Assembly: GCF_056746865.1 (NCBI RefSeq)
Contig: NZ_JBWKMP010000003.1
Strand: one strand, 5' to 3'
DNA: 64,000 bases
Source: a plasmid
The position numbers and the translations under genes were made by a program. Positions 3,212 through 53,376 of this stretch are shown here, piece after piece. The number at the start of each line of letters is the position of its first letter. The first letter of the stretch is position 1. The notes beneath the pieces are model-generated. The model searched no databases. It had not been told where the DNA came from and saw only the letters and a program-made list of their open reading frames with translations.

Positions 3212-3818
3212 ATCTAATTATGTTCTTCTTAATTATGATGAGTTAAACGAAAAGGGGCTGGCAAAACTCGTCAAAGAAATCGGTAAAGGAGGCTACAAGA
3301 TAGCGAGGGTGATCCCCGCCAGTAATGGCAGGAAGAAAGACGGGATCATGACGCGCACGTTTACCCTTATCGGAATCGATGAGCAGACGATGGACGTTCA
3401 GGTTAATGATACTGGTGATATTTCTGGTGTAAAACTGAACGGAAAAATTGTTCCTTTCAAGCCAGTTAAAACGCTGATGGCTTTAGGGCAATCACTGGCT
3501 GCTTTATTTAATAAAGGCGCATCATCATTTCAGAAATCATTGGCGCGTAAGTTAGCTCGTGCGGCGAAAGATATTGATGATGGGAATAAGAAAATAAAAG
3601 GCGTTAAGTCCAATGCGCAGAAACTAGCAGAGGCAAAGGAATCTCGCGATGCGATCCGCGAGGATATTGAAAGGGCCAAAGAAAAATTAAATCAGGTGCA
3701 AGGTAATTCAGACCGCGCAACAAGAGAAACTGAAATCATTAGAACCGAGATGGCGCAGGAACTGGCGAAAACTCGCGTATTGAAAGAAGAAATAGCGCGC
3801 CTGGAGGAAGATGCATGA
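3201..3818 (+). CDS. hdf: Hdf-like protein (homologue of a DarA fragment)
   Basis: ATG at 3201 has SD AAGGAG 7 nt upstream. The region ..DGIMTRTFTLIG..VKLNGKIVP..LGQSLAALFNKGASSFQK aligns with DarA ..DGQTTSIIFHSP..FLLNKRNVT..VCQALSNLIERNSAKFKK. Confidence 0.6.
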   Translation: MSNKSNYVLLNYDELNEKGLAKLVKEIGKGGYKIARVIPASNGRKKDGIMTRTFTLIGIDEQTMDVQVNDTGDISGVKLNGKIVPFKPVKTLMALGQSLAALFNKGASSFQKSLARKLARAAKDIDDGNKKIKGVKSNAQKLAEAKESRDAIREDIERAKEKLNQVQGNSDRATRETEIIRTEMAQELAKTRVLKEEIARLEEDA

Positions 3819-5740
3819 TAAAGAAACCTATTCGAATAAATATCCAGTCCACTTTTGCAGATACGCTCACTGGATATACGCCTAATCGTTGGGTGGCGGA
3901 AGATATCACCGAGGATGATTTACTTATCGAGCCTGCGACGCTGGAAGATATCGAGCTGGCCTATATGGGCAACGAAATTTTGGTAACTACCAATGAGGCA
4001 ATGTTCGAAGCTTTAACCACAACAAAATTGCGGTTAGCGCAAACAATGCGAGCATTTGTCCGGGCGCTTAATCGCGGCCTGAATGGCACTGACATTGCTG
4101 CGGGTACGGATGAGGCAGGTGAATATGAAGACGGACGTAATAGTATCGGTGGGGCAATCATTGGGCGCGTGCGCCGGGTTGCTAATATCCCTGTTGTAAC
4201 AGCACAAATACCTCTAACCGATGGACAAACGACAAGCATAATTTTCCATTCTCCAACCGCAGACGGCACAAGAATTAAAGGGGATGACGAGCTGGTTGCG
4301 TTTCAGTTTCTTCTTAACAAAAGAAACGTTACGCATGTTGTTGCGCCAATCGGTGGGCGTGATGTATCTCTGAGCCAGGTGTGTCAGGCGCTTTCTAACC
4401 TCATTGAGCGTAACAGTGCAAAATTCAAAAAAGCAAAGGAGCGCCAGGACAAAATGAAGGCTGATATTGAGGGGTATCTCAATGAAGCCGACAAGCTGGC
4501 AGAAGAACGTTCTGTGCTGATTGAGCAGGTTGAAGACGCACAGCGGGGGCTGGCAGAGAAACGCTCAACACTCAATGATATGCAGAATAAATTAGACGCA
4601 CAAAAAGCCCTTAACGGGGAATTGCAGGCTAAGCGCGATAATTTATTGTCAGCTAAGAGCCAAGGAACTAAAGAGCGTGCCTTCAATGATCAACTGCGAC
4701 ACATAAAACATAATCTTGCTACAGAAGGCCAAACAACGCTGGATAATGGTGCTGTAGTTAAGTATGTCACGTCAGGCAGTGATAGCTTTGTCACGATTGA
4801 GGCACCAGAAGGCAATTTCAGTATTGATGTCAGTGCTGTTAAAGGTGGGAGTTCAGCGGACGCTGCAACCAAATTACTTAAAGCCTATCGTGAACATAAT
4901 GCTGATCAATACAAAGTGGATGTGTTGCCGGGCCAGCCTGAGCCAACTGATCAGCCGCAGCCTGAACAGGAGCCACAACCAGCATCACATCCTGATCCCC
5001 TGGAGGTTGGTAAATATCGCTATGCGCTACAATCTCGCCCGGCGGGTGTTGGTGCGGTTCCTGAAGGAAATAAAGCTGTACTTGACCGTCCTGATCAGGC
5101 TGATCCGTATTACGAATATGCTCGTCACGGAATCATTACGTATGACCGCAAACTGACAGACGAAGAAGTCAGTCAGTACGAATTACGCTATCTGCCTGAT
5201 GACGATGAACTGAGAGGGATGGCGAACGAGCTGGTTGCGTCCAGCATGGTAAAACATATTGATGGCTATGTAGATCTGTTTGGAAGTGACCTGAAAACAT
5301 TCAAGGCGCAAGTTAAAATTCTTTTCCGCAAAGCGTTCCCGAACGTGGCATATCCACTTGGTGATGGGGAGAACCTTTTCATTATGGACGTGTATAACGC
5401 CCTTCAAAATCATTCAAGCGAAGTAAAAACAGATCCTGTAGTTGAGCCAGAATCGCAACCTGCACCAGCACCAGAACAGGAGCCGGAGCCAGAAGAAGCG
5501 GGTGAATCAGCAAGCGAAGCTGACCAGGAAGCAGATAAAGCGCTTGAGTACCTGAAATCCGTTCCGGAGCAGTTCACATCCCGCGATCTGACGGTCATAA
5601 GTGCTGAACTTGATCATGTGCAGGAAGCTGCAAACGCTCTTATCAGTGCTGGTCGATATGACGAGAACGAAGCAACTGTAGGTGCAGCCGTTGACTACCT
5701 GATCAATATTCTGGCTGAAATTCAGCAGGGAGGTGCTTAA
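3815..5740 (+). CDS. darA: DarA-like internal head / antirestriction protein
   Basis: 641 aa (P1 DarA is about 639 aa). Central coiled coil, PQPE-rich linkers, operon position after lydAB-hdf. Confidence 0.65.
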   Translation: MIKKPIRINIQSTFADTLTGYTPNRWVAEDITEDDLLIEPATLEDIELAYMGNEILVTTNEAMFEALTTTKLRLAQTMRAFVRALNRGLNGTDIAAGTDEAGEYEDGRNSIGGAIIGRVRRVANIPVVTAQIPLTDGQTTSIIFHSPTADGTRIKGDDELVAFQFLLNKRNVTHVVAPIGGRDVSLSQVCQALSNLIERNSAKFKKAKERQDKMKADIEGYLNEADKLAEERSVLIEQVEDAQRGLAEKRSTLNDMQNKLDAQKALNGELQAKRDNLLSAKSQGTKERAFNDQLRHIKHNLATEGQTTLDNGAVVKYVTSGSDSFVTIEAPEGNFSIDVSAVKGGSSADAATKLLKAYREHNADQYKVDVLPGQPEPTDQPQPEQEPQPASHPDPLEVGKYRYALQSRPAGVGAVPEGNKAVLDRPDQADPYYEYARHGIITYDRKLTDEEVSQYELRYLPDDDELRGMANELVASSMVKHIDGYVDLFGSDLKTFKAQVKILFRKAFPNVAYPLGDGENLFIMDVYNALQNHSSEVKTDPVVEPESQPAPAPEQEPEPEEAGESASEADQEADKALEYLKSVPEQFTSRDLTVISAELDHVQEAANALISAGRYDENEATVGAAVDYLINILAEIQQGGA

Positions 5741-23484: not shown

Positions 23485-24693
23485 ATGAGTCAGCAAGTAG
23501 AATCATCAAGCCTGGAGATCATCTCAACCGCAATTGAAACGCTGCGGACACAAATCGCGCTTATACAGAAACGAAATCCGGGCGATGACCTGTCAAAGCG
23601 ACTGCATGAGAGCGTCATTGCCACTACAGATAACCTGGTGGCGGAAATCAACCAGCTCCTTGATGATGGGGCAGTTGATTACAATAAGCTGGTGGATCAG
23701 TTTGAGGAATATCAGCAAGCCGTTAATGATGGCTTGATCCGTTTTTCTCAAGTCACTGGTGTATCAGCGACAGTTGAAAGCCTGGGGGATGCAGTTAATC
23801 AATTTGCCGCGAATATGCGTAATGAGATCGGCAATCTGGAGGCGCGTCTTGAGCAGGCAAATACACTGCGCAAATCTGCTGAAGTCGATTTGAGTCGTTA
23901 CAAAAAAGACTATCCGCCAAGCCTGACAAAACGACTGGATGTTGCGGAGAAAGATAACCGCACGCTGAAAAGAGAGCGTCGGGAACTAAAAGAGCGTTTA
24001 ACCAAGCTAAATCAGCAATGCGTTGAGTATCAAGGCGAACTCGTCACACTGCGTAAAAAGTTAGCAGCGGCGCAGAGCATTATTGAAACATTGAAACGAG
24101 AGTGCTCAGAGCTTGGTCATGATCTGAATCGCGCCTGTGGCATGGGGCAAAGGCCAGAGACATTCCCGCTAATGTATGACGGAAGAGAAGCTATTGCCTA
24201 TATCCATGAGTTTCCGCATGGTCTGGTCGCGGAGACTGGGCAACGTGGCGAAGCGTTGCTGACGGCAAATTACCATCAGCAAATCAGAACCAGCCGCCTG
24301 CTGACGATGGATGTGATCCCGTCAGTATGGGGAACGCCGCTTTACTACCGAATTCCTGGCTTCGAAACTGACTGGAATACCGACATAGACGAATGTCTGG
24401 CAGATAAAATTATGGCGTACCTTGAAACGGATTTTCCACGCTTGCATCGCCGGATTATGGACTCTAAGGATGCACCGATCGACGAATTGAAAATGCGTCC
24501 AGAGACGTTGGAGGCAATCAAGCAGACTGAGTTTGATACAGTGTTCAGTGTGGCCTGCATTCCAAGCAGCTTTCATGAAAGCATTCCGTTCATGCAGGGC
24601 GATCGCCGTCAGGAAATAATTGATGCTTGCCGGGTATGGGCGAACGAGTGGGATAAGAAGAACGGTGGAGTTGAAAATCTTTACGGGAAATAA
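23485..24693 (+). CDS. Hypothetical protein with N-terminal coiled coil, operator-flanked
   Basis: 402 aa with SD AAGGGAAC. The first ~210 aa have heptad-like coiled-coil character. I recognise no catalytic motif. Confidence 0.8.
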   Translation: MSQQVESSSLEIISTAIETLRTQIALIQKRNPGDDLSKRLHESVIATTDNLVAEINQLLDDGAVDYNKLVDQFEEYQQAVNDGLIRFSQVTGVSATVESLGDAVNQFAANMRNEIGNLEARLEQANTLRKSAEVDLSRYKKDYPPSLTKRLDVAEKDNRTLKRERRELKERLTKLNQQCVEYQGELVTLRKKLAAAQSIIETLKRECSELGHDLNRACGMGQRPETFPLMYDGREAIAYIHEFPHGLVAETGQRGEALLTANYHQQIRTSRLLTMDVIPSVWGTPLYYRIPGFETDWNTDIDECLADKIMAYLETDFPRLHRRIMDSKDAPIDELKMRPETLEAIKQTEFDTVFSVACIPSSFHESIPFMQGDRRQEIIDACRVWANEWDKKNGGVENLYGK

Positions 24694-24695
24694 TG

Positions 24696-24725
24696 TGTTA
24701 GAAAATTAAAATTGTTTTTCTAACA
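24696..24725. promoter_or_regulatory. Inverted operator pair TGTTAGAAAATTAA-aa-TTGTTTTTCTAACA
   Basis: Bivalent operator abutting the promoter of the RNA island. Confidence 0.65.
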
Positions 24726-24727
24726 TA

Positions 24728-24756
24728 TTGATTATGTAGTTAACTTAACATAGAAT
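24728..24756 (+). promoter_or_regulatory. Sigma70-type promoter TTGATT-17 nt-TAGAAT
   Basis: Good -35 and -10 hexamers with 17-nt spacing. The predicted start falls just before the 12-bp-stem hairpin at 24763-24830. Confidence 0.55.
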
Positions 24757-24845
24757 TTTTCGTGCTGGTGGGGAGCTTCCCATGTCGCTTGCGGGTTTGA
24801 TAGTCACTTCATTGTCTTTCCCCACCAGCATCAAACAAATTTAAG

Positions 24846-24859
24846 TGTTAGAAAGTAAA
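24846..24859 (+). promoter_or_regulatory. Operator half-site TGTTAGAAAGTAAA
   Basis: Motif family member inside the RNA-island leader. Confidence 0.45.
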
Positions 24860-25129
24860 TTTTAAGGTAAGGGAAAGCTCCGGCACCGTGCAAATACATG
24901 CCCGGCAGGTTTAGTGCGTAAAGTGGTTTCAGCGAGAGCATTTTACGGAGTAAACGACAGTGACTTGAGCCACGGAAGGTCTTTTTATGGTGTTCATTGA
25001 TGATGATCTGGCAGTGAGTATGTTAAGTGGGCCAGGCTGCATCGGGTCATCATCAGTGCACATCCTCAACGTTAAGGAGGCGCAGAGTTGGGTTTTCCTC
25101 TTATTTTGCTGACTCTGAGTCTCCTTAAC

Positions 25130-25229
25130 GTTGCGGTAATGCACCTATGCGGATGTGGCCTTGCATTGTGTCTTGAAAGAATGGGGTAAGGCCGGGGATA
25201 TCCCCAGGGGGAGGCACCCCCGCTGCAAC
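25130..25229 (+). ncRNA. Structured element U1 (undescribed family, tRNA-shaped)
   Basis: Closing helix GTTGCGG / CTGCAAC. Conserved TAATGC box. Hairpin GGGGG-AGGCA-CCCCC lies 1 nt before the 3' strand. Confidence 0.55.
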
Positions 25230-25552
25230 GAACAGCCACAGACGGCAGTCGAGTGATGGAAACGTGCAAAGACTTTAAACCTCGTTACGGCTGGCGTGGC
25301 AAACGCGACAACCGAGACAGAGCGGTGACGGGCGGAGAGAGAGCCGCTTCAAGATAAAAGCCGACTATGGATTCCTTTCTGCGGGCCTTTGAAAGTGAAT
25401 CTTGCTCAGGCAGTCGGCTTTTATGTTGATACGTAGCGATAACCGCGACAGGCGCGGCGGTAAGTATGGCGGGGTTATTCCTTCCCCGTTGAGGACACCG
25501 AGTTGCCAGGTTGACCATACGCCTAAGTGGCAATACCGCGAGTGGGATATTT

Positions 25553-25577
25553 GCCCACCTTCGGGTGGGTGTTTTTT
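25553..25577 (+). terminator. Intrinsic terminator inside the RNA island
   Basis: GCCCACC-TTCG-GGTGGGT followed by GTTTTTT. Confidence 0.8.
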
Positions 25578-26039
25578 CAGTGTTTTCGTCATGGTTAGCG
25601 ACTTTGCGGCGGTTTAGAACCCGACCATTAAAGTAAATGCAAACGATGATCTGATGATGGTAGCGGCCTAAGAAGCCTGACGCCACGGGGTATGAGTCGT
25701 CCCCCGTCAAAAAAATCGACCGCAGAGTGTCCCCGTCTGTGTATTAGGGAACGGGGAGGCATAACAGGCAAGGGCGCTGGTGTGATTAACCAGATGAATG
25801 AGAAGGGTCAGGTCTTTCTGGTCAGCGCCCTTACCTGTTACGTCCCTCCCGCGTAACAGCCATTGGTTAATGGCTTTCTGGGATAATGTCTTGTAACGGG
25901 TATATCCCGTCATGCTGAAGGCGCTAATCACGCTGGAAGCCAGGGTTATGCATCCCCTGTTACCGAATTGCAGCCAGGGCGCGGTGCGCCGAAAAGCATA
26001 CGGAGGTGGAAGCCCTCGCCGGAGACGTACCCGGCAAGT

Positions 26040-26114
26040 GATGGTGTAGCTCAGTGGTAGAGCAGTTGGCTGTTAACCAACTGGTCGGTGGTTCGAATCC
26101 ATCCACCATCGCCA
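26040..26114 (+). tRNA. tRNA-Asn (anticodon GTT)
   Basis: Full cloverleaf: acceptor GATGGTG/CACCATC, D stem GCTC/GAGC, anticodon stem GTTGG/CCAAC with loop CTGTTAA, T loop TTCGAAT, encoded CCA. Confidence 0.95.
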
Positions 26115-26116
26115 AT

Positions 26117-26192
26117 GCCGGTTTAGCTCAGTTGGTAGAGCGCCTGCCTTGTAAGCAGGATGTCAGCGGTTCGAGTCCGTTAACCGGCACCA
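26117..26192 (+). tRNA. tRNA-Thr (anticodon TGT)
   Basis: Acceptor GCCGGTT/AACCGGC, anticodon stem CCTGC/GCAGG with loop CTTGTAA, T loop TTCGAGT, encoded CCA. Confidence 0.95.
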
Positions 26193-26200
26193 ACACAACA

Positions 26201-26275
26201 GGTAAGGGTATTTTGCGACGTCGGAGATCGCCGAGCTTGGCAGAGGGTTCGAATCCCTACGAAGTACCCTTACCG
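26201..26275 (+). ncRNA. Aberrant tRNA-like element (canonical T arm, 10-bp terminal helix, no cloverleaf)
   Basis: GGTAAGGGTA..TACCCTTACC terminal helix encloses GAGGGTTCGAATCCCT (T arm) displaced by a CGAAG bulge. There is no D or anticodon arm and no CCA. Confidence 0.4.
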
Positions 26276-26308
26276 TTGTGATGAATGCACAGGCTGATGT
26301 GCCGCAAC
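26275..26308 (+). ncRNA. Structured element U4 (minimal copy)
   Basis: GTTGTG / CGCAAC helix (one U.G pair) encloses ATGAAT plus hairpin GCACA-GGCTGA-TGTGC. Confidence 0.45.
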
Positions 26309-26380
26309 TACAGTAGTGCGCGCTTTGCGGGGCTTGCTACAACCCTGTGTCGGAGTTCAGCACCGACCATCACAATCACT

Positions 26381-26467
26381 GGAGAGTAGGGAGCATGGTG
26401 CTCAAGCGGTCTTGAAAACCGTCCCATTGCGCAAGCGATGATGGTTCGATTCCATTACTCTCCGCCA
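26381..26467 (+). tRNA. Class II tRNA, anticodon TGA (tRNA-Ser-like) with short D arm
   Basis: Acceptor GGAGAGT/ACTCTCC, discriminator G plus CCA, anticodon loop CTTGAAA. Long variable arm ATTGC-GCAA-GCGAT. T loop TTCGATT. The D arm is only GAGC-ATGGT-GCTC. Confidence 0.8.
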
Positions 26468-26575
26468 GCGCAACGTTAAGAGTATTTGGCTAATTAAGCG
26501 AATGCCGGAAGCAGAACCGGATCACCAAATGCGTACAGGCGTCATCGCCGCCCAGTCAGCCAAATGCTCTTACCA

Positions 26576-26715
26576 TTGCGGTGAATGCGGCTAAGCGCAC
26601 GCGGAACAGTTAAAACAGTAAAGGTGGTCTTTTTACTGGCGTAACGAGAATCCATAAGTGATCCGGCGTTAATTGTTAACTGGTTAACGTCACCGGGAGG
26701 CACCCGGCACCGCAA
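26576..26715 (+). ncRNA. Structured element U2
   Basis: Closing helix TTGCGGTG / CACCGCAA. Conserved AATGCGGCTAAGCGC. Hairpin CCGGG-AGGCA-CCCGG abuts the 3' strand. Confidence 0.55.
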
Positions 26716-26758
26716 CCTAACAGCAATGGCGTTTTGTCTTAAAAGGTGGCTGCAAGTG

Positions 26759-26887
26759 ATGGATTTTTGGGCGTTTGCCGATAAAAACCCGGAGTGGACA
26801 TTATTGTTTCTGCTGGTGGTTGCATACGGGGTAGAGCAAGCGGCAAAAGCCTTACGCGGTTCTGGCAAAAAGCGTAAGCGTAATTAA
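26759..26887 (+). CDS. Candidate 42-aa membrane peptide (below the ORF-track cutoff)
   Basis: MDFWAFADKNPEWTLLFLLVVAYGVEQAAKALRGSGKKRKRN has one TM helix and a basic tail. SD AAGGTGG lies about 9 nt upstream. Confidence 0.35.
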   Translation: MDFWAFADKNPEWTLLFLLVVAYGVEQAAKALRGSGKKRKRN

Positions 26888-26896
26888 CAGTAATCT

Positions 26897-26972
26897 GGCC
26901 CTTTAGCTCAGTGGTTAGAGCGGGCGACTCATAATCGCACGATCACCGGTTCAAGTCCGGTAGGGGCCACCA
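26897..26972 (+). tRNA. tRNA with anticodon CAT, ileX-like (tRNA-Ile2 via lysidine, or Met)
   Basis: Very similar to my recollection of E. coli ileX (GGCCC(C/T)TTAGCTCAGTGGTTAGAGC..GGCGACTCATAATCGC..GGTTCAAGTCC..GGGGCCACCA). P1 also encodes such a tRNA. Confidence 0.9.
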
Positions 26973-27196
26973 CATTTGGTTGTAACACGGCGTATGGCAC
27001 ATGCGTCGTTAGCGGTCTGGTGTAGCTGTTAGGTACCTTTTACTAACACTGCATGGGCACACCAGGTAGCCGGAATGTGCAAGCCCCGTTCATAGCGTCG
27101 GACTGCGGATTCACCATCCTGGCGATTCGGTGTGACAGCCGGAAGAGCACGGCGTACAACAGGAAAAGGCGTTTAATTAGCGTGAGCGCCGTTTCC

Positions 27197-27311
27197 GTTG
27201 TGGTAATTGCGGCTATGCGCTCGTGACGAAGCCATTTTCATTCACTACGTTCTGATAAGTGTCGTCGCCAGGCGTGGCTAACCTGGCAGGTGGAGGCACC
27301 ACCGCCACAAC
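27197..27311 (+). ncRNA. Structured element U3
   Basis: Closing helix GTTGTGG / CCACAAC, compensatory relative to U1 and U2. Conserved TAATTGCGGCTATGCGC. Hairpin GGTGG-AGGCA-CCACC lies 1 nt before the 3' strand. Confidence 0.55.
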
Positions 27312-27424
27312 TCCTTTCAATTCATCATATAGCCGCTCAGGCTGTAACTCTTAATTAATACGAAGTTACGACGTCACTACCGGTTCAGCCGGGGGATAGT
27401 CGCGCGTGTAAAAAAGGAGACGTT

Positions 27425-28000
27425 ATGTTAACGGCGAACGATAACGCGTATTTAGAAGATGATCTCGTTTTGAGTGACTTTATAGGGCGACGAGAATGCT
27501 GGACGCAAAAGCGCGAGGAGCTTTATGCAGCGTTAGTTCGTAAAGGCGTCAACATCGAAACCGCACAGAACGGTGATATGACAGTGGTAAGTGTTGGACT
27601 GCACGGCGTAAGTGTGTCAGCAATCAATCATGAGCCGTACATTGCGTTATCCGAGTCGATGGTAAGGTTAGTTAAGTTCCTGAAGTACACAGAAGCGAAT
27701 AACGTGCTCATCGCCAAAAAGAACATCCCGTTCTCATCGGCCTTTTACTGGATGATGAAGGGGCTTGATGCCCGGCGAACATCATGGCCTAAAGGGAGCT
27801 ATATATCGATGCTCCGTGGCAGTGTTGGTAGCAAAGAAAAGCTCGTCGAATTCCTGCCGGAAGAGGCATTCGATATTGTTGAAGGTTGTGATGTGATGGT
27901 TATGCCTCGCCTGGTAATGATGAATGGGGATTTACAGGCGCAGACAGACTGGTTTGCAACTGGAGTTGATATTATCGCTACTGACTGGGAGGTTTTTTGA
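27425..28000 (+). CDS. Hypothetical protein with C-terminal DUF2829 (Tad2-like) domain
   Basis: 191 aa with SD AAGGAG. C-terminus ..FYWMMKGLDARRTSWPKGSYI....IIATDWEVF. Confidence 0.7.
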   Translation: MLTANDNAYLEDDLVLSDFIGRRECWTQKREELYAALVRKGVNIETAQNGDMTVVSVGLHGVSVSAINHEPYIALSESMVRLVKFLKYTEANNVLIAKKNIPFSSAFYWMMKGLDARRTSWPKGSYISMLRGSVGSKEKLVEFLPEEAFDIVEGCDVMVMPRLVMMNGDLQAQTDWFATGVDIIATDWEVF

Positions 28001-28380: not shown

Positions 28381-28410
28381 TGTTAGCAAATTGATATTAA
28401 TTTTCTAATA
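28381..28410. promoter_or_regulatory. Inverted operator pair TGTTAGCAAATTGA-ta-TTAATTTTCTAATA
   Basis: Upstream of the Lpa-position gene. In P1, lpa is operator-controlled. Confidence 0.6.
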
Positions 28411-28487: not shown

Positions 28488-28880
28488 ATGGAGCAAATCA
28501 GTAGCGCCGAAATAGCGGATATCATGATCAGGGCTAACTGCTATCTGACGGTCACCGAAATCACCAGCCGTGCAAAAGCACAATATCCTCACCTTCATGT
28601 GTCGCGCGTAAACGTAAATAACATCATACGTTTTTTTGTTCGTTCCAGTCGTGCCATTTGCGAAATAGACGACCGCGTATACCCCCGGAAATATTGGTTA
28701 CATGGCCTGAATGGATACCAGTTCAAGGTGCGCGGGCGCACTCCTGAATTCGGTCGGCTGTTGGTGAAAAACACCAACCGAAAGATAGAAGCTCAATTAC
28801 GAAAGGAGCAGCGTCAGTTGGTGGCGATGACTAACCAGCTATGGAACGCCGCTGTGAAAAAACGTGAGGCTTCCCTATGA
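28488..28880 (+). CDS. Candidate late promoter activator (Lpa position)
   Basis: 130 aa, directly upstream of pacA and behind an operator pair, as P1 lpa (gene 10). Assigned by synteny only. Confidence 0.4.
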   Translation: MEQISSAEIADIMIRANCYLTVTEITSRAKAQYPHLHVSRVNVNNIIRFFVRSSRAICEIDDRVYPRKYWLHGLNGYQFKVRGRTPEFGRLLVKNTNRKIEAQLRKEQRQLVAMTNQLWNAAVKKREASL

Positions 28881-48270: not shown

Positions 48271-48300
48271 TGTTAGAAAATTAAAATCAATATTCTAACA
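48271..48300. promoter_or_regulatory. Inverted operator pair TGTTAGAAAATTAA-aa-TCAATATTCTAACA
   Basis: Lies in the 100-bp gap between two leftward gene blocks. Confidence 0.65.
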
Positions 48301-53346: not shown

Positions 53347-53376
53347 TGTTAGAAAATCAATTTTGATTTTCTAACA
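53347..53376. promoter_or_regulatory. Perfect palindromic operator pair TGTTAGAAAATCAA-tt-TTGATTTTCTAACA
   Basis: Lies in the divergent control region between the leftward operon and ref. In P1, ref is C1-controlled. Confidence 0.7.

What the first reader, a model, noticed from the sequence alone, without database searches (positions are those of the whole stretch)
24728..27424. 2.7-kb ORF-poor, heavily structured RNA island under operator control
Between the 402-aa gene and the 27425 gene there is no credible ORF longer than about 45 codons. The track ORFs here overlap tRNAs or are R/P-rich shadow frames. The region opens with a bivalent operator (24696-24725) and a good promoter (TTGATT-17-TAGAAT). 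The predicted transcript would start at a 12-bp-stem hairpin (TGCTGGTGGGGA 24763-24774 with TCCCCACCAGCA 24819-24830). Further long helices follow. One is TGATGATGA/TCATCATCA at about 25000-25057. Another is AACGTTAAGGAG/CTCCTTAACGTT at 25068-25131. A third is AAAAGCCGACT/AGTCGGCTTTT at about 25355-25420. There is also an imperfect stem of about 26 bp at about 25750-25855. A strong terminator at 25553-25577 splits the island. Four tRNAs, one aberrant tRNA-like element and the U1-U4 elements lie within it. This is far more non-coding RNA-like sequence than a simple phage tRNA cluster needs.
Basis: seen in the sequence. Interest (0 to 1): 0.7.

Follow-up and report, generated by a model that had tools for sequence, protein, structure and literature searches.

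The report
Phage early-operon leader of RNA modules
This 2.7-kb stretch of a D6/P1-type plasmid prophage is a repressor-controlled, almost protein-free transcription unit built from tRNAs and conserved folded RNA modules, and it is a rearranged relative of the known phage P1 "ban operon" leader rather than something unprecedented.

Summary
Positions 24728-27424 carry one credible protein gene, a 43-codon TciC homologue. The hairpins persist, with compensatory changes, in relatives only about 83% identical, and the candidate small ORFs are not conserved.

The window is a D6-like plasmid prophage, 99.8% identical to an E. coli plasmid. The island is the counterpart of the annotated P1/P7 unit [quoted passage not shown]. 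Here it sits between pmgS and a Tad2-like gene instead of ending in ban.

The U1-U4 elements are four copies of one folded RNA family of 100-142 nt. U3 is a sub-threshold match to Rfam STnc100, which a preprint links to PasD. Covariation is strong over 108 distinct copies from 77 genomic stretches. Each U is preceded by a long hairpin.

In E. coli K-12 Qin, one U lies between DicF and dicB. Its 5' edge falls at the 3' end calculated for the reported 72-nt RNase III form of DicF.

Best reading: one polycistronic precursor is cut by RNase III, E and P into tRNAs, stable RNAs and short mRNAs. This is a variant of known kinds, of moderate interest. The global "heavily structured" claim is only modestly supported by folding energies.

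The parts
24692..24729 (.). Bivalent operator: inverted TGTTAGAAA half-sites 21 nt apart, abutting the -35 hexamer
   Evidence: inverted repeat I9. (motif enrichment, and the same pair geometry at three other places). The P1 and P7 records annotate the homologous position as the divalent C1 operator Oban.
24728..24756 (+). Sigma-70-type promoter TTGATT-17-TAGAAT
   Evidence: Both hexamers are invariant in 11 relatives.
24763..24830 (+). H1, a 5'-terminal stem-loop with a 12-14 bp stem at the predicted transcript start
   Evidence: z -4.6. By my reading of the alignment, GGGGA/TCCCC changes to GGGCG/CGCCC in D6-type relatives. Kept in the RNAalifold consensus.
24844..24860 (+). Third, single operator-like site inside the leader
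   Evidence: Exact TGTTAGAAA at 24846. The core is invariant in all 11 relatives.
24909..24955 (+). Hmid, a conserved hairpin
   Evidence: tile z -3.5.
24990..25065 (+). H2, the hairpin TGATGATGA/TCATCATCA. Its loop carries the non-conserved 41-codon ORF.
   Evidence: ORF start ATG becomes AAG and stop positions vary among relatives.
25066..25134 (+).
   Evidence: Tile z -6.6. Four pairs show compensatory change. The 33-codon hydrophobic ORF in the loop is not conserved.
25130..25229 (+). U1, a copy of the U structured-RNA family
   Evidence: Model R1, 53.2 bits, E 5.6e-11. z -2.6.
25230..25348 (+). Near-invariant non-coding block. The 34-codon ORF within it has a TGA at codon 4 in two relatives.
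25349..25429 (+). H4, a long hairpin AAAAGCCGACT/AGTCGGCTTTT followed by UUUUAU
   Evidence: z -5.3. Two pairs show compensatory change. Its 3' end is an indel breakpoint.
25440..25545 (+). DicF-precursor-leader module, homologous to the stretch just 5' of DicF in lambdoid prophages. It is not DicF itself. It is present in P1 but absent from D6.
   Evidence: 92% identity to phage Tritos. The P1 record calls this the 'dicF-like region'. No Rfam DicF match. No R1 match.
25552..25577 (+). Intrinsic terminator: 8-bp G+C-rich stem, UUCG loop, T6 run
   Evidence: Conserved in P1 and D6.
25581..25941 (+). tRNA-proximal leader closed by a predicted long-range helix of 18 pairs between 25581-25600 and 25922-25941. 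It is nearly invariant between D6-like and P1-like phages.
   Evidence: Only one-sided changes that keep pairing were seen, so support for the helix is weak.
25753..25849 (+). Long imperfect hairpin with arms of about 27 nt
   Evidence: I3. z -5.0. One pair switches UA to CG in four relatives.
26040..26114 (+). tRNA-Asn (GTT)
26117..26192 (+). tRNA-Thr (TGT)
26201..26274 (+). S2, the tRNA-like element: a 15-bp clamp stem enclosing a T-arm-like hairpin, abutting U2
   Evidence: z -4.0. Not called a tRNA. The stem is kept while its contents are swapped in P7, Ro157c2YLVW and CP035876.
26275..26376 (+). U2, a divergent U copy lying between S2 and tRNA-Ser
   Evidence: R1, 38.2 bits, E 2.2e-7. 99% identical to P1 locus L002 4090-4188.
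26381..26467 (+). tRNA-Ser (TGA) with a long variable arm
   Evidence: Rfam scores it best as tRNA-Sec, below threshold.
26466..26574 (+). S3, a long hairpin preceding U3
   Evidence: I2, arms 26466-26500 and 26549-26583.
26575..26716 (+). U3, the best U copy and a sub-threshold match to Rfam STnc100
   Evidence: R1, 101.7 bits. STnc100 40.8 bits against a threshold of 47, covering model positions 31-147.
26756..26887 (+). tciC-like gene for a 43-aa membrane peptide, the only credible CDS in the island
   Evidence: Weak phrog_23152 match.
26897..26972 (+). tRNA with CAT anticodon. P1 annotates its counterpart as tRNA-Ile2.
27157..27200 (+). S4, a hairpin preceding U4
   Evidence: tile z -2.7.
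27197..27311 (+). U4
   Evidence: R1, 71.1 bits.
27312..27424 (+). Structured 5' untranslated leader of the 191-aa Tad2-like gene
   Evidence: z -2.6. Pfam PF11195 match on the downstream protein.

Best explanation
**What it is.** The island is the D6-lineage version of the phage P1/P7 ban-operon leader. It is an early transcription unit repressed in the lysogen by the phage C1-type repressor, acting at a bivalent operator that abuts a sigma-70 promoter.

**How it works.**
- On derepression it yields one long, almost protein-free polycistronic precursor.
- The 5' end is capped by a stable stem-loop.
- The body is a mosaic of exchangeable RNA modules: conserved hairpins, four S-hairpin-plus-U units, a DicF-precursor-leader module ending in an intrinsic terminator, four tRNAs, a tRNA-like clamp and a tiny tciC-like gene.
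- The unit then runs into a Tad2-like gene.
- Host RNases cut the precursor at module boundaries. RNase III acts at the long S stems and U closing stems, RNase E at single-stranded junctions, and RNase P at tRNA 5' ends.
- Cutting releases tRNAs, stable folded U RNAs and separately stabilised short mRNAs. The S-U units thus act as punctuation and insulation between cargo. U RNAs may also act as regulatory RNAs, since STnc100 is reported as an sRNA and PasD was found bound to Hfq.
- The terminator attenuates the unit. Distal expression needs read-through.

**Shown here.**
- Homology and synteny with the P1/P7 unit.
- Conservation and covariation of the structures.
- Absence of conserved ORFs.
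- The U family, its strand specificity and its contexts.

**Inferred.**
- Repressor control, by position and motif.
- A single transcript.
- The RNase assignments, by analogy with the characterised dicBF operon.
- Any trans-acting role of U.
For: **Homology and synteny.**
- The island is 90.7% identical to phage D6 and 99.8% to plasmid NZ_CP085065.
- P1 aligns over window 25440-26289, and again at 26276-26374, 26563-26604 and 26886-27154.
- The P1 record reads, in order: Oban, P1ban/P2ban, dicF-like region, trnA, trnT, tciA/B/C, trnI, ban.
- The P7 record says its operator controls the tRNAs.

**Operator and promoter.**

**No conserved ORFs.**

**Structure.**
- The hairpins are kept, with 7 compensatory pairs among 11 relatives and 2 more in the P1-shared part.
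- Element z-scores range from -4 to -6.6.

**The U family.**
- There are four hits of 38-102 bits, all on the + strand and all inside the island. The next best hit in 64 kb scores 10.8 bits.
- Across 108 distinct copies from 77 genomic stretches, 96.4% of cells are paired and 12 of 19 pairs show changes on both sides. Slid controls pair at 40-52%.
- The reverse strand of U3 scores 8.6 bits against 101.7, which points to RNA rather than DNA.
- In every context examined, U points the same way as the operon it lies in.

**Processing analogy.**
- In K-12 Qin, U occupies L141 1155-1282 (96 bits) and DicF occupies 1083-1135.
- (PMC5069750) reports a 72-nt RNase III form of DicF. By my arithmetic that form ends at 1154, the base before U.
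- The 190-nt RNase III form and the RNase E cut at the DicF 5' end bracket the module that is homologous to window 25440-25545.
- U2 is bounded by the tRNA-like clamp, which ends at 26274, and by tRNA-Ser, which starts at 26381.

**Modularity.** Indel breakpoints among relatives fall at module edges: 25428/25548, 26085/26116, 26276-26302, 26342-26351 and 26714-26757.

**Transcription.** P1vir RNA-seq detects trnA, trnI, tciA/B/C and ban, and these respond differently to loss of hfq.
Against: - There are no transcript or cleavage data for this element or for D6.
- A strong terminator (25552-25577) lies between the only detected promoter and the tRNAs. No antitermination mechanism is known, so a second, unrecognised promoter is possible.
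- The window's U closing stems are only about 9 bp, shorter than the 18-bp Qin stem and short for RNase III.
- RNase assignments rest on one characterised operon and on my arithmetic from published RNA sizes.
- Tandem U arrays with no cargo between them fit 'U is itself the product' better than pure punctuation.
- The second operator half-site is degenerate in D6-type relatives.
- The first U alignment was selected for paired P1 and P4 stems. The large alignment was fitted to the model, and its P4 was fixed by the search pattern.
Confidence: 0.6

Rival explanations
1. The U elements, and possibly the 25230-25429 block, are primarily trans-acting regulatory small RNAs with a conserved scaffold and a variable central domain. 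On induction they act on host or phage mRNAs or titrate an RNA-binding protein. The island is then mainly an sRNA-plus-tRNA expression cassette, and processing is only the route to maturation.
For: - U3 matches the core of Rfam STnc100.
- PasD was found by RIL-seq, which sequences RNAs bound to Hfq, and it was validated by northern blot. A preprint infers a common ancestor for PasD and STnc100.
- Arrays of 3-5 U copies with no genes between them lie between Q and a terminator upstream of holin and endolysin genes in Pantoea prophages.
- The central domain varies while P1, P2 and P4 are conserved.
- Operon segments respond differently to hfq deletion in P1vir.
Against: - The window's U copies lack the 3' third of STnc100 (model positions 148-206) and have no terminator or U-tail of their own.
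- No targets are known.
- U3-type copies sit a fixed 28-49 nt upstream of kil, dicB, tciA or other start codons, which looks cis-acting.
Confidence: 0.25
2. The repeated S-U sequences matter chiefly at the DNA level. They act as shared boundary sequences that let homologous recombination swap cargo cassettes (tRNAs, tci, SPFH or TerB genes) among P1-like, D6-like and lambdoid phages. Any RNA structure is secondary.
For: - Breakpoints between relatives coincide with U, S and tRNA edges.
- Cargo differs between relatives. tciA is present in D6, an SPFH gene is present in several plasmids, and the tRNA sets differ.
- D6-like and P1-like phages share 90-99% identity in 25570-26045, and this stretch is nearly invariant across them.
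- The same modules occur in lambdoid phages.
Against: - Compensatory changes keep the helices across 108 distinct copies.
- Orientation always follows the direction of transcription.
- The reverse-strand score is far lower, 8.6 against 101.7 bits.
- These features are selected at the RNA level and are not needed for recombination. The two roles are compatible.
Confidence: 0.1
3. Parts of the leader act in cis to let RNA polymerase read through the terminator at 25552-25577. Candidates are the DicF-precursor-leader module or the U elements. This would be factor-independent processive antitermination of the kind shown by HK022 put RNA, and it would explain how the tRNAs, and ban in P1, are expressed from the operator-controlled promoter.
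For: - In both Qin and this element, the same leader module directly precedes an intrinsic terminator that must be read through for the downstream genes.
- No other promoter was detected.
Against: - Model R1 finds nothing in HK022.
- D6 lacks the DicF-leader module yet keeps the terminator and the tRNAs.
- There is no direct evidence.
Confidence: 0.05

Closest known systems
Phage P1/P7 ban operon leader (Oban, formerly Op72; then dicF-like region, trnA, trnT, tciA/B/C, trnI and ban), as annotated in NC_005856 and NC_050152
   Same: - A bivalent repressor operator overlapping a sigma-70 promoter.
- 78-99% nucleotide identity over the aligned segments within 25440-27154.
- The dicF-like module plus terminator, tRNA-Asn, tRNA-Thr and the CAT-anticodon tRNA.
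- U2-type and U3-type elements and a TciC homologue.
   Different: - It lies between pmgS and a Tad2-like gene, upstream of lpa and pacA. In P1 the unit lies between dmt and ban.
- The operator half-site sequence differs from P1's.
- It has an extra leader of about 700 nt (24757-25430: H1, Hmid, H2, S1-U1, H4) found only in D6-type elements.
- tRNA-Ser and U4 are added, and tciA and tciB are missing.
Rfam RF02076 STnc100, and the PasD sRNAs that a preprint infers to share an ancestor with it (10.64898/2026.05.13.724894)
   Same: - The core fold is shared: a closing stem GUUGCGGUG/CACCGCAAC, AAU, a small hairpin with a UNNGC loop, a variable centre and a CCGGG-AGGCA-CCCGG hairpin.
- Both occur in prophage operons.
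   Different: - All copies here score below the Rfam threshold (at most 40.8 against 47 bits) and cover only model positions 31-147.
- They have no 3' domain or terminator.
- Four copies lie in one operon of a P1/D6-type plasmid prophage, each behind a long hairpin.
[quoted passage not shown]
   Same: - Window 25440-25545 is homologous to the RNA just 5' of DicF, and an intrinsic terminator follows in both.
- A U element follows DicF and precedes dicB.
- Both are polycistronic, repressor-controlled transcripts cut into RNA and mRNA products.
   Different: - There is no DicF here (no Rfam match). Only a degenerate remnant after the terminator aligns with it.
- The cargo is tRNAs rather than division inhibitors.
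RNase III processing hairpins between cistrons of the phage T7 early transcript (from my own knowledge, not tested here)
   Same: Long irregular hairpins placed between functional units of a phage polycistronic early RNA. They would separate the products and leave protective 3' stem-loops.
   Different: There is no sequence relation. Cleavage is not demonstrated here, and the units here include a second conserved multi-helix domain (U).

Membership tests
P1/P7 ban-operon leader unit | Bivalent repressor operator overlapping a sigma-70 promoter at the 5' end | tested here: met
   Inverted half-sites lie at 24692-24729, abutting TTGATT-17-TAGAAT. The position is equivalent to the annotated Oban. 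The half-site sequence differs from P1's, and binding was not tested.
P1/P7 ban-operon leader unit | dicF-like region, then tRNA-Asn, tRNA-Thr and the CAT-anticodon tRNA, in the same order and strand | tested here: met
P1/P7 ban-operon leader unit | tciA-tciB-tciC genes within the unit | tested here: inconclusive
   Only a TciC homologue is present. tciA and tciB are absent here but present in D6.
P1/P7 ban-operon leader unit | The unit ends in ban, a DnaB-like helicase, and follows dmt | tested here: not met
   The upstream gene is pmgS-like. The downstream genes are Tad2-like, orf5, lpa-like and pacA.
Rfam RF02076 STnc100 | Score at or above the curated gathering threshold (47 bits) over the full 206-position model | tested here: not met
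   U3 scores 40.8 bits over positions 31-147 only. U1, U2 and U4 give no match at E up to 1.
Rfam RF02076 STnc100 | Shared core secondary structure | tested here: met
   The cmscan alignment shows the shared core. My own model R1 unites U1-U4 with lambdoid copies that also hit STnc100 below threshold.
Rfam RF00039 DicF | Match to the 52-position DicF model | tested here: not met
   There is no DicF match in 24000-28000 at E up to 1. The same search finds DicF in phage Tritos at 72.5 bits.
tRNA genes | Cloverleaf recognised by ARAGORN and Rfam tRNA models | tested here: met
   Four genes are recognised. tRNA-Ser matches only the tRNA-Sec model, below its threshold. The 26201-26274 element is not recognised.
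HK022 put antiterminator RNA | Relatedness of U to the RNA elements of HK022 | tested here: not met
   R1 over the whole HK022 genome gives a best hit of 10.6 bits, E 0.63, and not near the early promoters.
Type I toxin-antitoxin (small hydrophobic peptide with a sequestered ribosome-binding site) | Conserved small hydrophobic ORF | tested here: not met
   The 33-codon TTG ORF at 25088 lies in a hypervariable hairpin loop with indels that are not multiples of three. It has no family match.
Integron attC recombination sites | 5'-RYYYAAC ... GTTRRRY-3' order of the core sites | tested here: not met
   By inspection, U and S stems run 5'-GTT...AAC-3', the mirror order. No integrase gene lies nearby.

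The most novel reading that the evidence does not exclude
S-hairpin-plus-U units are a widespread, so far undescribed class of RNA punctuation cassette in temperate phages of Enterobacterales. Each cargo, whether a tRNA, a small RNA or a toxic small gene, would be bracketed by a processing hairpin and a conserved four-helix RNA. That RNA would both direct RNase cleavage and serve as the recombination boundary that makes the cargo portable among P1-like, D6-like and lambdoid phages. A further step is possible. The island ends in a Tad2-like gene and carries a changeable tRNA set, so it may be an early-expressed counter-defence unit in which the U RNAs themselves act as decoys or regulators.
Probability: 0.25. 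Interest if true: 0.65.

Novelty: new variant of a known kind. Interest (0 to 1): 0.45.

Why it matters
- It ties together three things that are annotated separately or not at all. These are the P1 dicF-like and tRNA leader, the long untranslated stretch around DicF in Qin, and the prophage sRNAs STnc100 and PasD.
- They share one modular RNA architecture with strong covariation. It occurs in matches from more than 100 species-representative genomes, nearly all Enterobacterales.
- It gives a concrete, testable model for how temperate phages express tRNAs and toxic small genes from one repressed promoter.
- It also bears on how such cargo moves between unrelated phages.
- It flags annotated ORFs that overlap these RNAs, such as P1 upl, as doubtful.

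Tried and rejected
- **Small proteins.** The 41-, 33-, 34-, 54- and 45-codon ORFs have no Pfam or PHROG match where searched. The first three are not conserved in relatives. The last two lie in near-invariant RNA, where my reading of the few substitutions gives mostly non-synonymous changes.
- **Type I toxin in the S1 loop.** Rejected, because the loop is hypervariable.
- **DicF itself.** Rejected, with no Rfam match. Only the precursor leader is homologous.
- **The DicF-leader module as a fifth U.** Rejected, with no R1 hit.
- **U as HK022 put.** Rejected.
- **attC-like recombination sites.** Rejected, because the core order is mirrored.
- **The tRNA-like element as a true tRNA.** Rejected. 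Its clamp stem encloses different contents in relatives.
- **The 'MW1434 type I TA toxin' label.** It turned out to belong to the 191-aa gene outside the island.
- **Dead ends.** The P1 genome paper (PMC523184) is not held. One viral-contig pattern scan returned mostly chance matches and had to be filtered.
- **No promoter found downstream of the terminator.** The simple scan found none. Phage late-promoter motifs could not be tested.

Full report
**What the window is.** The region and its flanks are 99.8% identical to E. coli plasmid NZ_CP085065 and 90.7% identical to phage D6. The 402-aa gene upstream is PmgS-like. Downstream lie a 191-aa gene, orf5, an lpa-like gene and pacA. The window is therefore a D6-type, P1-like plasmid prophage.

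**Checking the observation.**
- ORF poverty is confirmed independently. NCBI annotation of the near-identical plasmid places one CDS in the island, at window 26756-26887.
- That 43-aa product aligns with TciC of P1, P7 and SJ46 at 37-40% identity. One real tiny gene therefore exists.
- The other ORFs fail. The 41-codon ORF at 24987 loses its ATG in most relatives and stops at different places.
- The 33-codon hydrophobic ORF at 25088 lies in a hypervariable hairpin loop with indels that are not multiples of three.
- The 34-codon ORF at 25253 has a TGA at codon 4 in two relatives.
- None of the ORFs searched matches Pfam or PHROGs.

**Control region.**
- The half-site TGTTAGAAA is enriched in the window. 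There are 35 matches with at most one mismatch against 15.6 expected, and 0 of 100 shuffles reached 35.
- It forms 21-nt-spaced inverted pairs at four places, one of them just upstream of the lpa-like gene. This is the dispersed-operator pattern known for P1 C1.
- The pair at 24692-24729 abuts the only + strand promoter-like site in 24400-27700. Both promoter hexamers are invariant in 11 relatives.
- The P1 and P7 records annotate the homologous position as the divalent C1 operator Oban with its promoters. The P7 note says it controls the tRNAs.
- A third single site at 24846 lies inside the leader and is invariant.
- The second half-site is degenerate in D6-type relatives.

**Homology to P1.**
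- P1 aligns with window 25440-26289 at 89%. It also aligns at 26276-26374 (99%), 26563-26604 and 26886-27154.
- The order in P1 is Oban, dicF-like region, trnA, trnT, tciA/B/C, trnI and ban.
- Most of the island is thus an already annotated kind of unit that has been moved to a different genomic position and re-cargoed.
- Only 24757-25430 is specific to D6-type elements.

**Are the structures real?**
- Arbitrary 150-nt tiles give a mean z of -1.18 in the island and -0.43 in flanking coding sequence (the means are my arithmetic). That difference is modest.
- Defined elements are strong. H1 scores -4.6, H4 -5.3, the long hairpin -5.0, the S1 tile -6.6 and the tRNA-like clamp -4.0.
- More telling, relatives about 83% identical keep all the 5' hairpins, with compensatory changes at seven pairs.
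- The P1-shared part keeps the long hairpin, with one pair switching UA to CG in four relatives.
- Window 25570-26045 is nearly invariant between D6-like and P1-like phages. RNAalifold closes it with a predicted long-range helix of 18 pairs, 25581-25600 with 25922-25941. Only one-sided changes support that helix.

**The U elements.**
- U1-U4 share one fold. It has a closing stem (P1) GUUGCGGUG/CACCGCAAC, then AAU, then a small hairpin (P2) with a UNNGC loop. A variable centre follows, then a hairpin (P4) CCGGG-AGGCA-CCCGG.
- Covariance model R1, built from 23 copies, finds exactly four hits in the 64-kb window. They score 101.7, 71.1, 53.2 and 38.2 bits, all lie in the island and all are on the + strand. 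The next best hit scores 10.8 bits.
- These four were in the training set, so what is informative is the absence of any other hit.
- The first alignment was selected for paired P1 and P4. Only P2 is an unbiased test there, and it is 100% paired with 3 of 6 pairs covarying.
- R1 then found 114 copies in the 77 stretches searched. Of these, 108 are distinct, 96.4% of cells are paired, and 12 of 19 pairs change on both sides. That comprises 8 of 9 pairs in P1 and 3 of 5 in P2. Slid controls pair at 40-52%.
- That alignment is fitted to the model, and its P4 was fixed by the search pattern.
- U3 matches Rfam STnc100 at 40.8 bits, below the threshold of 47, over model positions 31-147 only. D6, P1 and lambdoid copies behave the same way.
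- A 2026 preprint infers a common ancestor for STnc100 and the PasD sRNAs, which were found by Hfq RIL-seq.

**Context of U.**
- In lambdoid phages, a U3-type copy ends 28-49 nt before the next annotated start codon, which is kil or dicB in most of them. P1 and D6 have one the same distance before tciA.
- Other copies follow the Q antiterminator gene in the late operon.
- In Pantoea prophages, three to five copies stand in arrays, some only 11-20 nt apart, between Q and a terminator that precedes holin and endolysin genes.
- In every case examined, U points the same way as the operon.

**The S hairpins.**
- In the window, each U is directly preceded by a long hairpin S whose 3' strand runs into P1.
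- S2 is the 'aberrant tRNA-like element'. Its clamp stem persists in relatives while its contents are exchanged.

**Link to known processing.**
- Window 25440-25545 is 92% identical to the RNA just 5' of DicF in phage Tritos. It is not a U and it is not DicF.
- In E. coli K-12 Qin, DicF is at L141 1083-1135 and a U is at 1155-1282 (96 bits). dicB starts at 1310.
- Published work reports a 190-nt DicF species whose 5' end is made by RNase III and a 53-nt species whose 5' end is made by RNase E. It also reports a 72-nt species whose 3' end is made by RNase III.
- By my arithmetic the 72-nt form ends at 1154, the base before U. There the closing stem extends to 18 bp.
- In the one characterised operon, then, both module types are delimited by RNase III or RNase E cuts.
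- In the window, U2 lies between the tRNA-like clamp, which ends at 26274, and tRNA-Ser, which starts at 26381. tRNA processing would release it.

**Mosaicism.**
- Breakpoints between relatives fall at module edges.
- Cargo differs among relatives. It includes tciA, an SPFH gene, and extra or different tRNAs such as Arg, Tyr and Asn.

**Interpretation.** The best-supported account is a repressor-controlled early unit that makes one mostly non-coding precursor. Host RNases cut it at S-U and tRNA boundaries into tRNAs, stable folded RNAs and short mRNAs. The internal terminator attenuates distal expression.
- P1vir RNA-seq shows that the homologous P1 genes are transcribed and respond differently to hfq loss. 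This is consistent with post-transcriptional partitioning.
- The main rival is that U RNAs are themselves the products, acting in trans. Cargo-free tandem arrays and the PasD link to Hfq favour it. The lack of a terminator on the U copies and their fixed spacing before start codons count against it.
- A DNA-level role as recombination boundaries is compatible, but it cannot explain the covariation or the strand bias.
- A put-like antitermination role was tested against HK022 and found no support.
- How polymerase passes the terminator remains unexplained.

**Verdict.** However, it is a variant of known kinds, namely the P1 ban leader, the STnc100 family and the dicBF leader. Interest is moderate. 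What is new is the recognition of S-U units as a repeated module with strong covariation support, shared by P1/D6-type and lambdoid phages.

Noticed in passing
window 27425-28000: The 191-aa gene just downstream has a Tad2-like (Thoeris anti-defence 2) domain, PF11195, E 4.4e-10. RefSeq labels its homologues 'MW1434 family type I TA system toxin', which looks like a misleading name. Together with the changeable tRNA set, it hints at an early counter-defence theme.
   Followed up: partly
window 28381-28410, 48271-48300, 53347-53376: Three further 21-nt-spaced inverted pairs of the TGTTAGAAA half-site. One lies just upstream of the lpa-like gene at 28488. They are probably other repressor-controlled promoters.
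   Followed up: no
L196 4137-4755 (Candidatus Pantoea formicae); also L187, L192, L168: Arrays of three to five U elements, several only 11-20 nt apart, lie between a Q-like gene and a terminator upstream of holin and endolysin genes. This is the place of the short late-leader RNA in lambda-like phages.
   Followed up: partly
L141 1146-1291 (E. coli K-12 Qin, between dicF and dicB): A 96-bit U element occupies what the literature calls a long untranslated region. Its closing stem extends to 18 bp, and its 5' edge is where I calculate the 72-nt RNase III form of DicF to end.
   Followed up: yes
L002 4089-4190 and about 3780-3860 (phage P1): The annotated minus-strand ORFs upl and plp overlap the plus-strand U2-type element and the tRNA-like clamp. 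At least upl may be an annotation artefact.
   Followed up: no
window 26287-26300 and 26355-26363 (U2); L066 3453-3587: In U2-type copies the P2 loop (GGCUGA) and the P4 loop (AGUUCAGCA) contain a 5-base complement, GCUGA/UCAGC. Standard copies have UNNGC and AGGCA, which could pair through their shared GC. This may be a loop-loop contact. The evidence is one type switch only.
   Followed up: partly
window 26381-26467: tRNA-Ser (UGA) is atypical. Rfam scores it best against the tRNA-Sec model, below threshold. The D6 record notes that tRNAscan-SE did not assign an amino acid.
   Followed up: no
window 25429-25547 versus L001 2324-2339: The 119-nt DicF-leader module is present in this plasmid, some close relatives and P1. 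It is absent from D6 and many D6-like plasmids. The indel is clean, lying between hairpin H4 and the terminator.
   Followed up: yes
window 25130-25350: This stretch, U1 plus the next 120 nt, is almost invariant among relatives whose flanks differ by about 17%. It is non-coding, since two relatives have a stop at codon 4 of the only ORF. Its function is unknown.
   Followed up: partly
L138 1313-2196 (Salmonella phage SJ46): The record annotates three hypothetical CDSs over the conserved tRNA leader and the position where P1 and P7 carry trnA and trnT. It lists no tRNAs there. This is probably mis-annotation.
   Followed up: no
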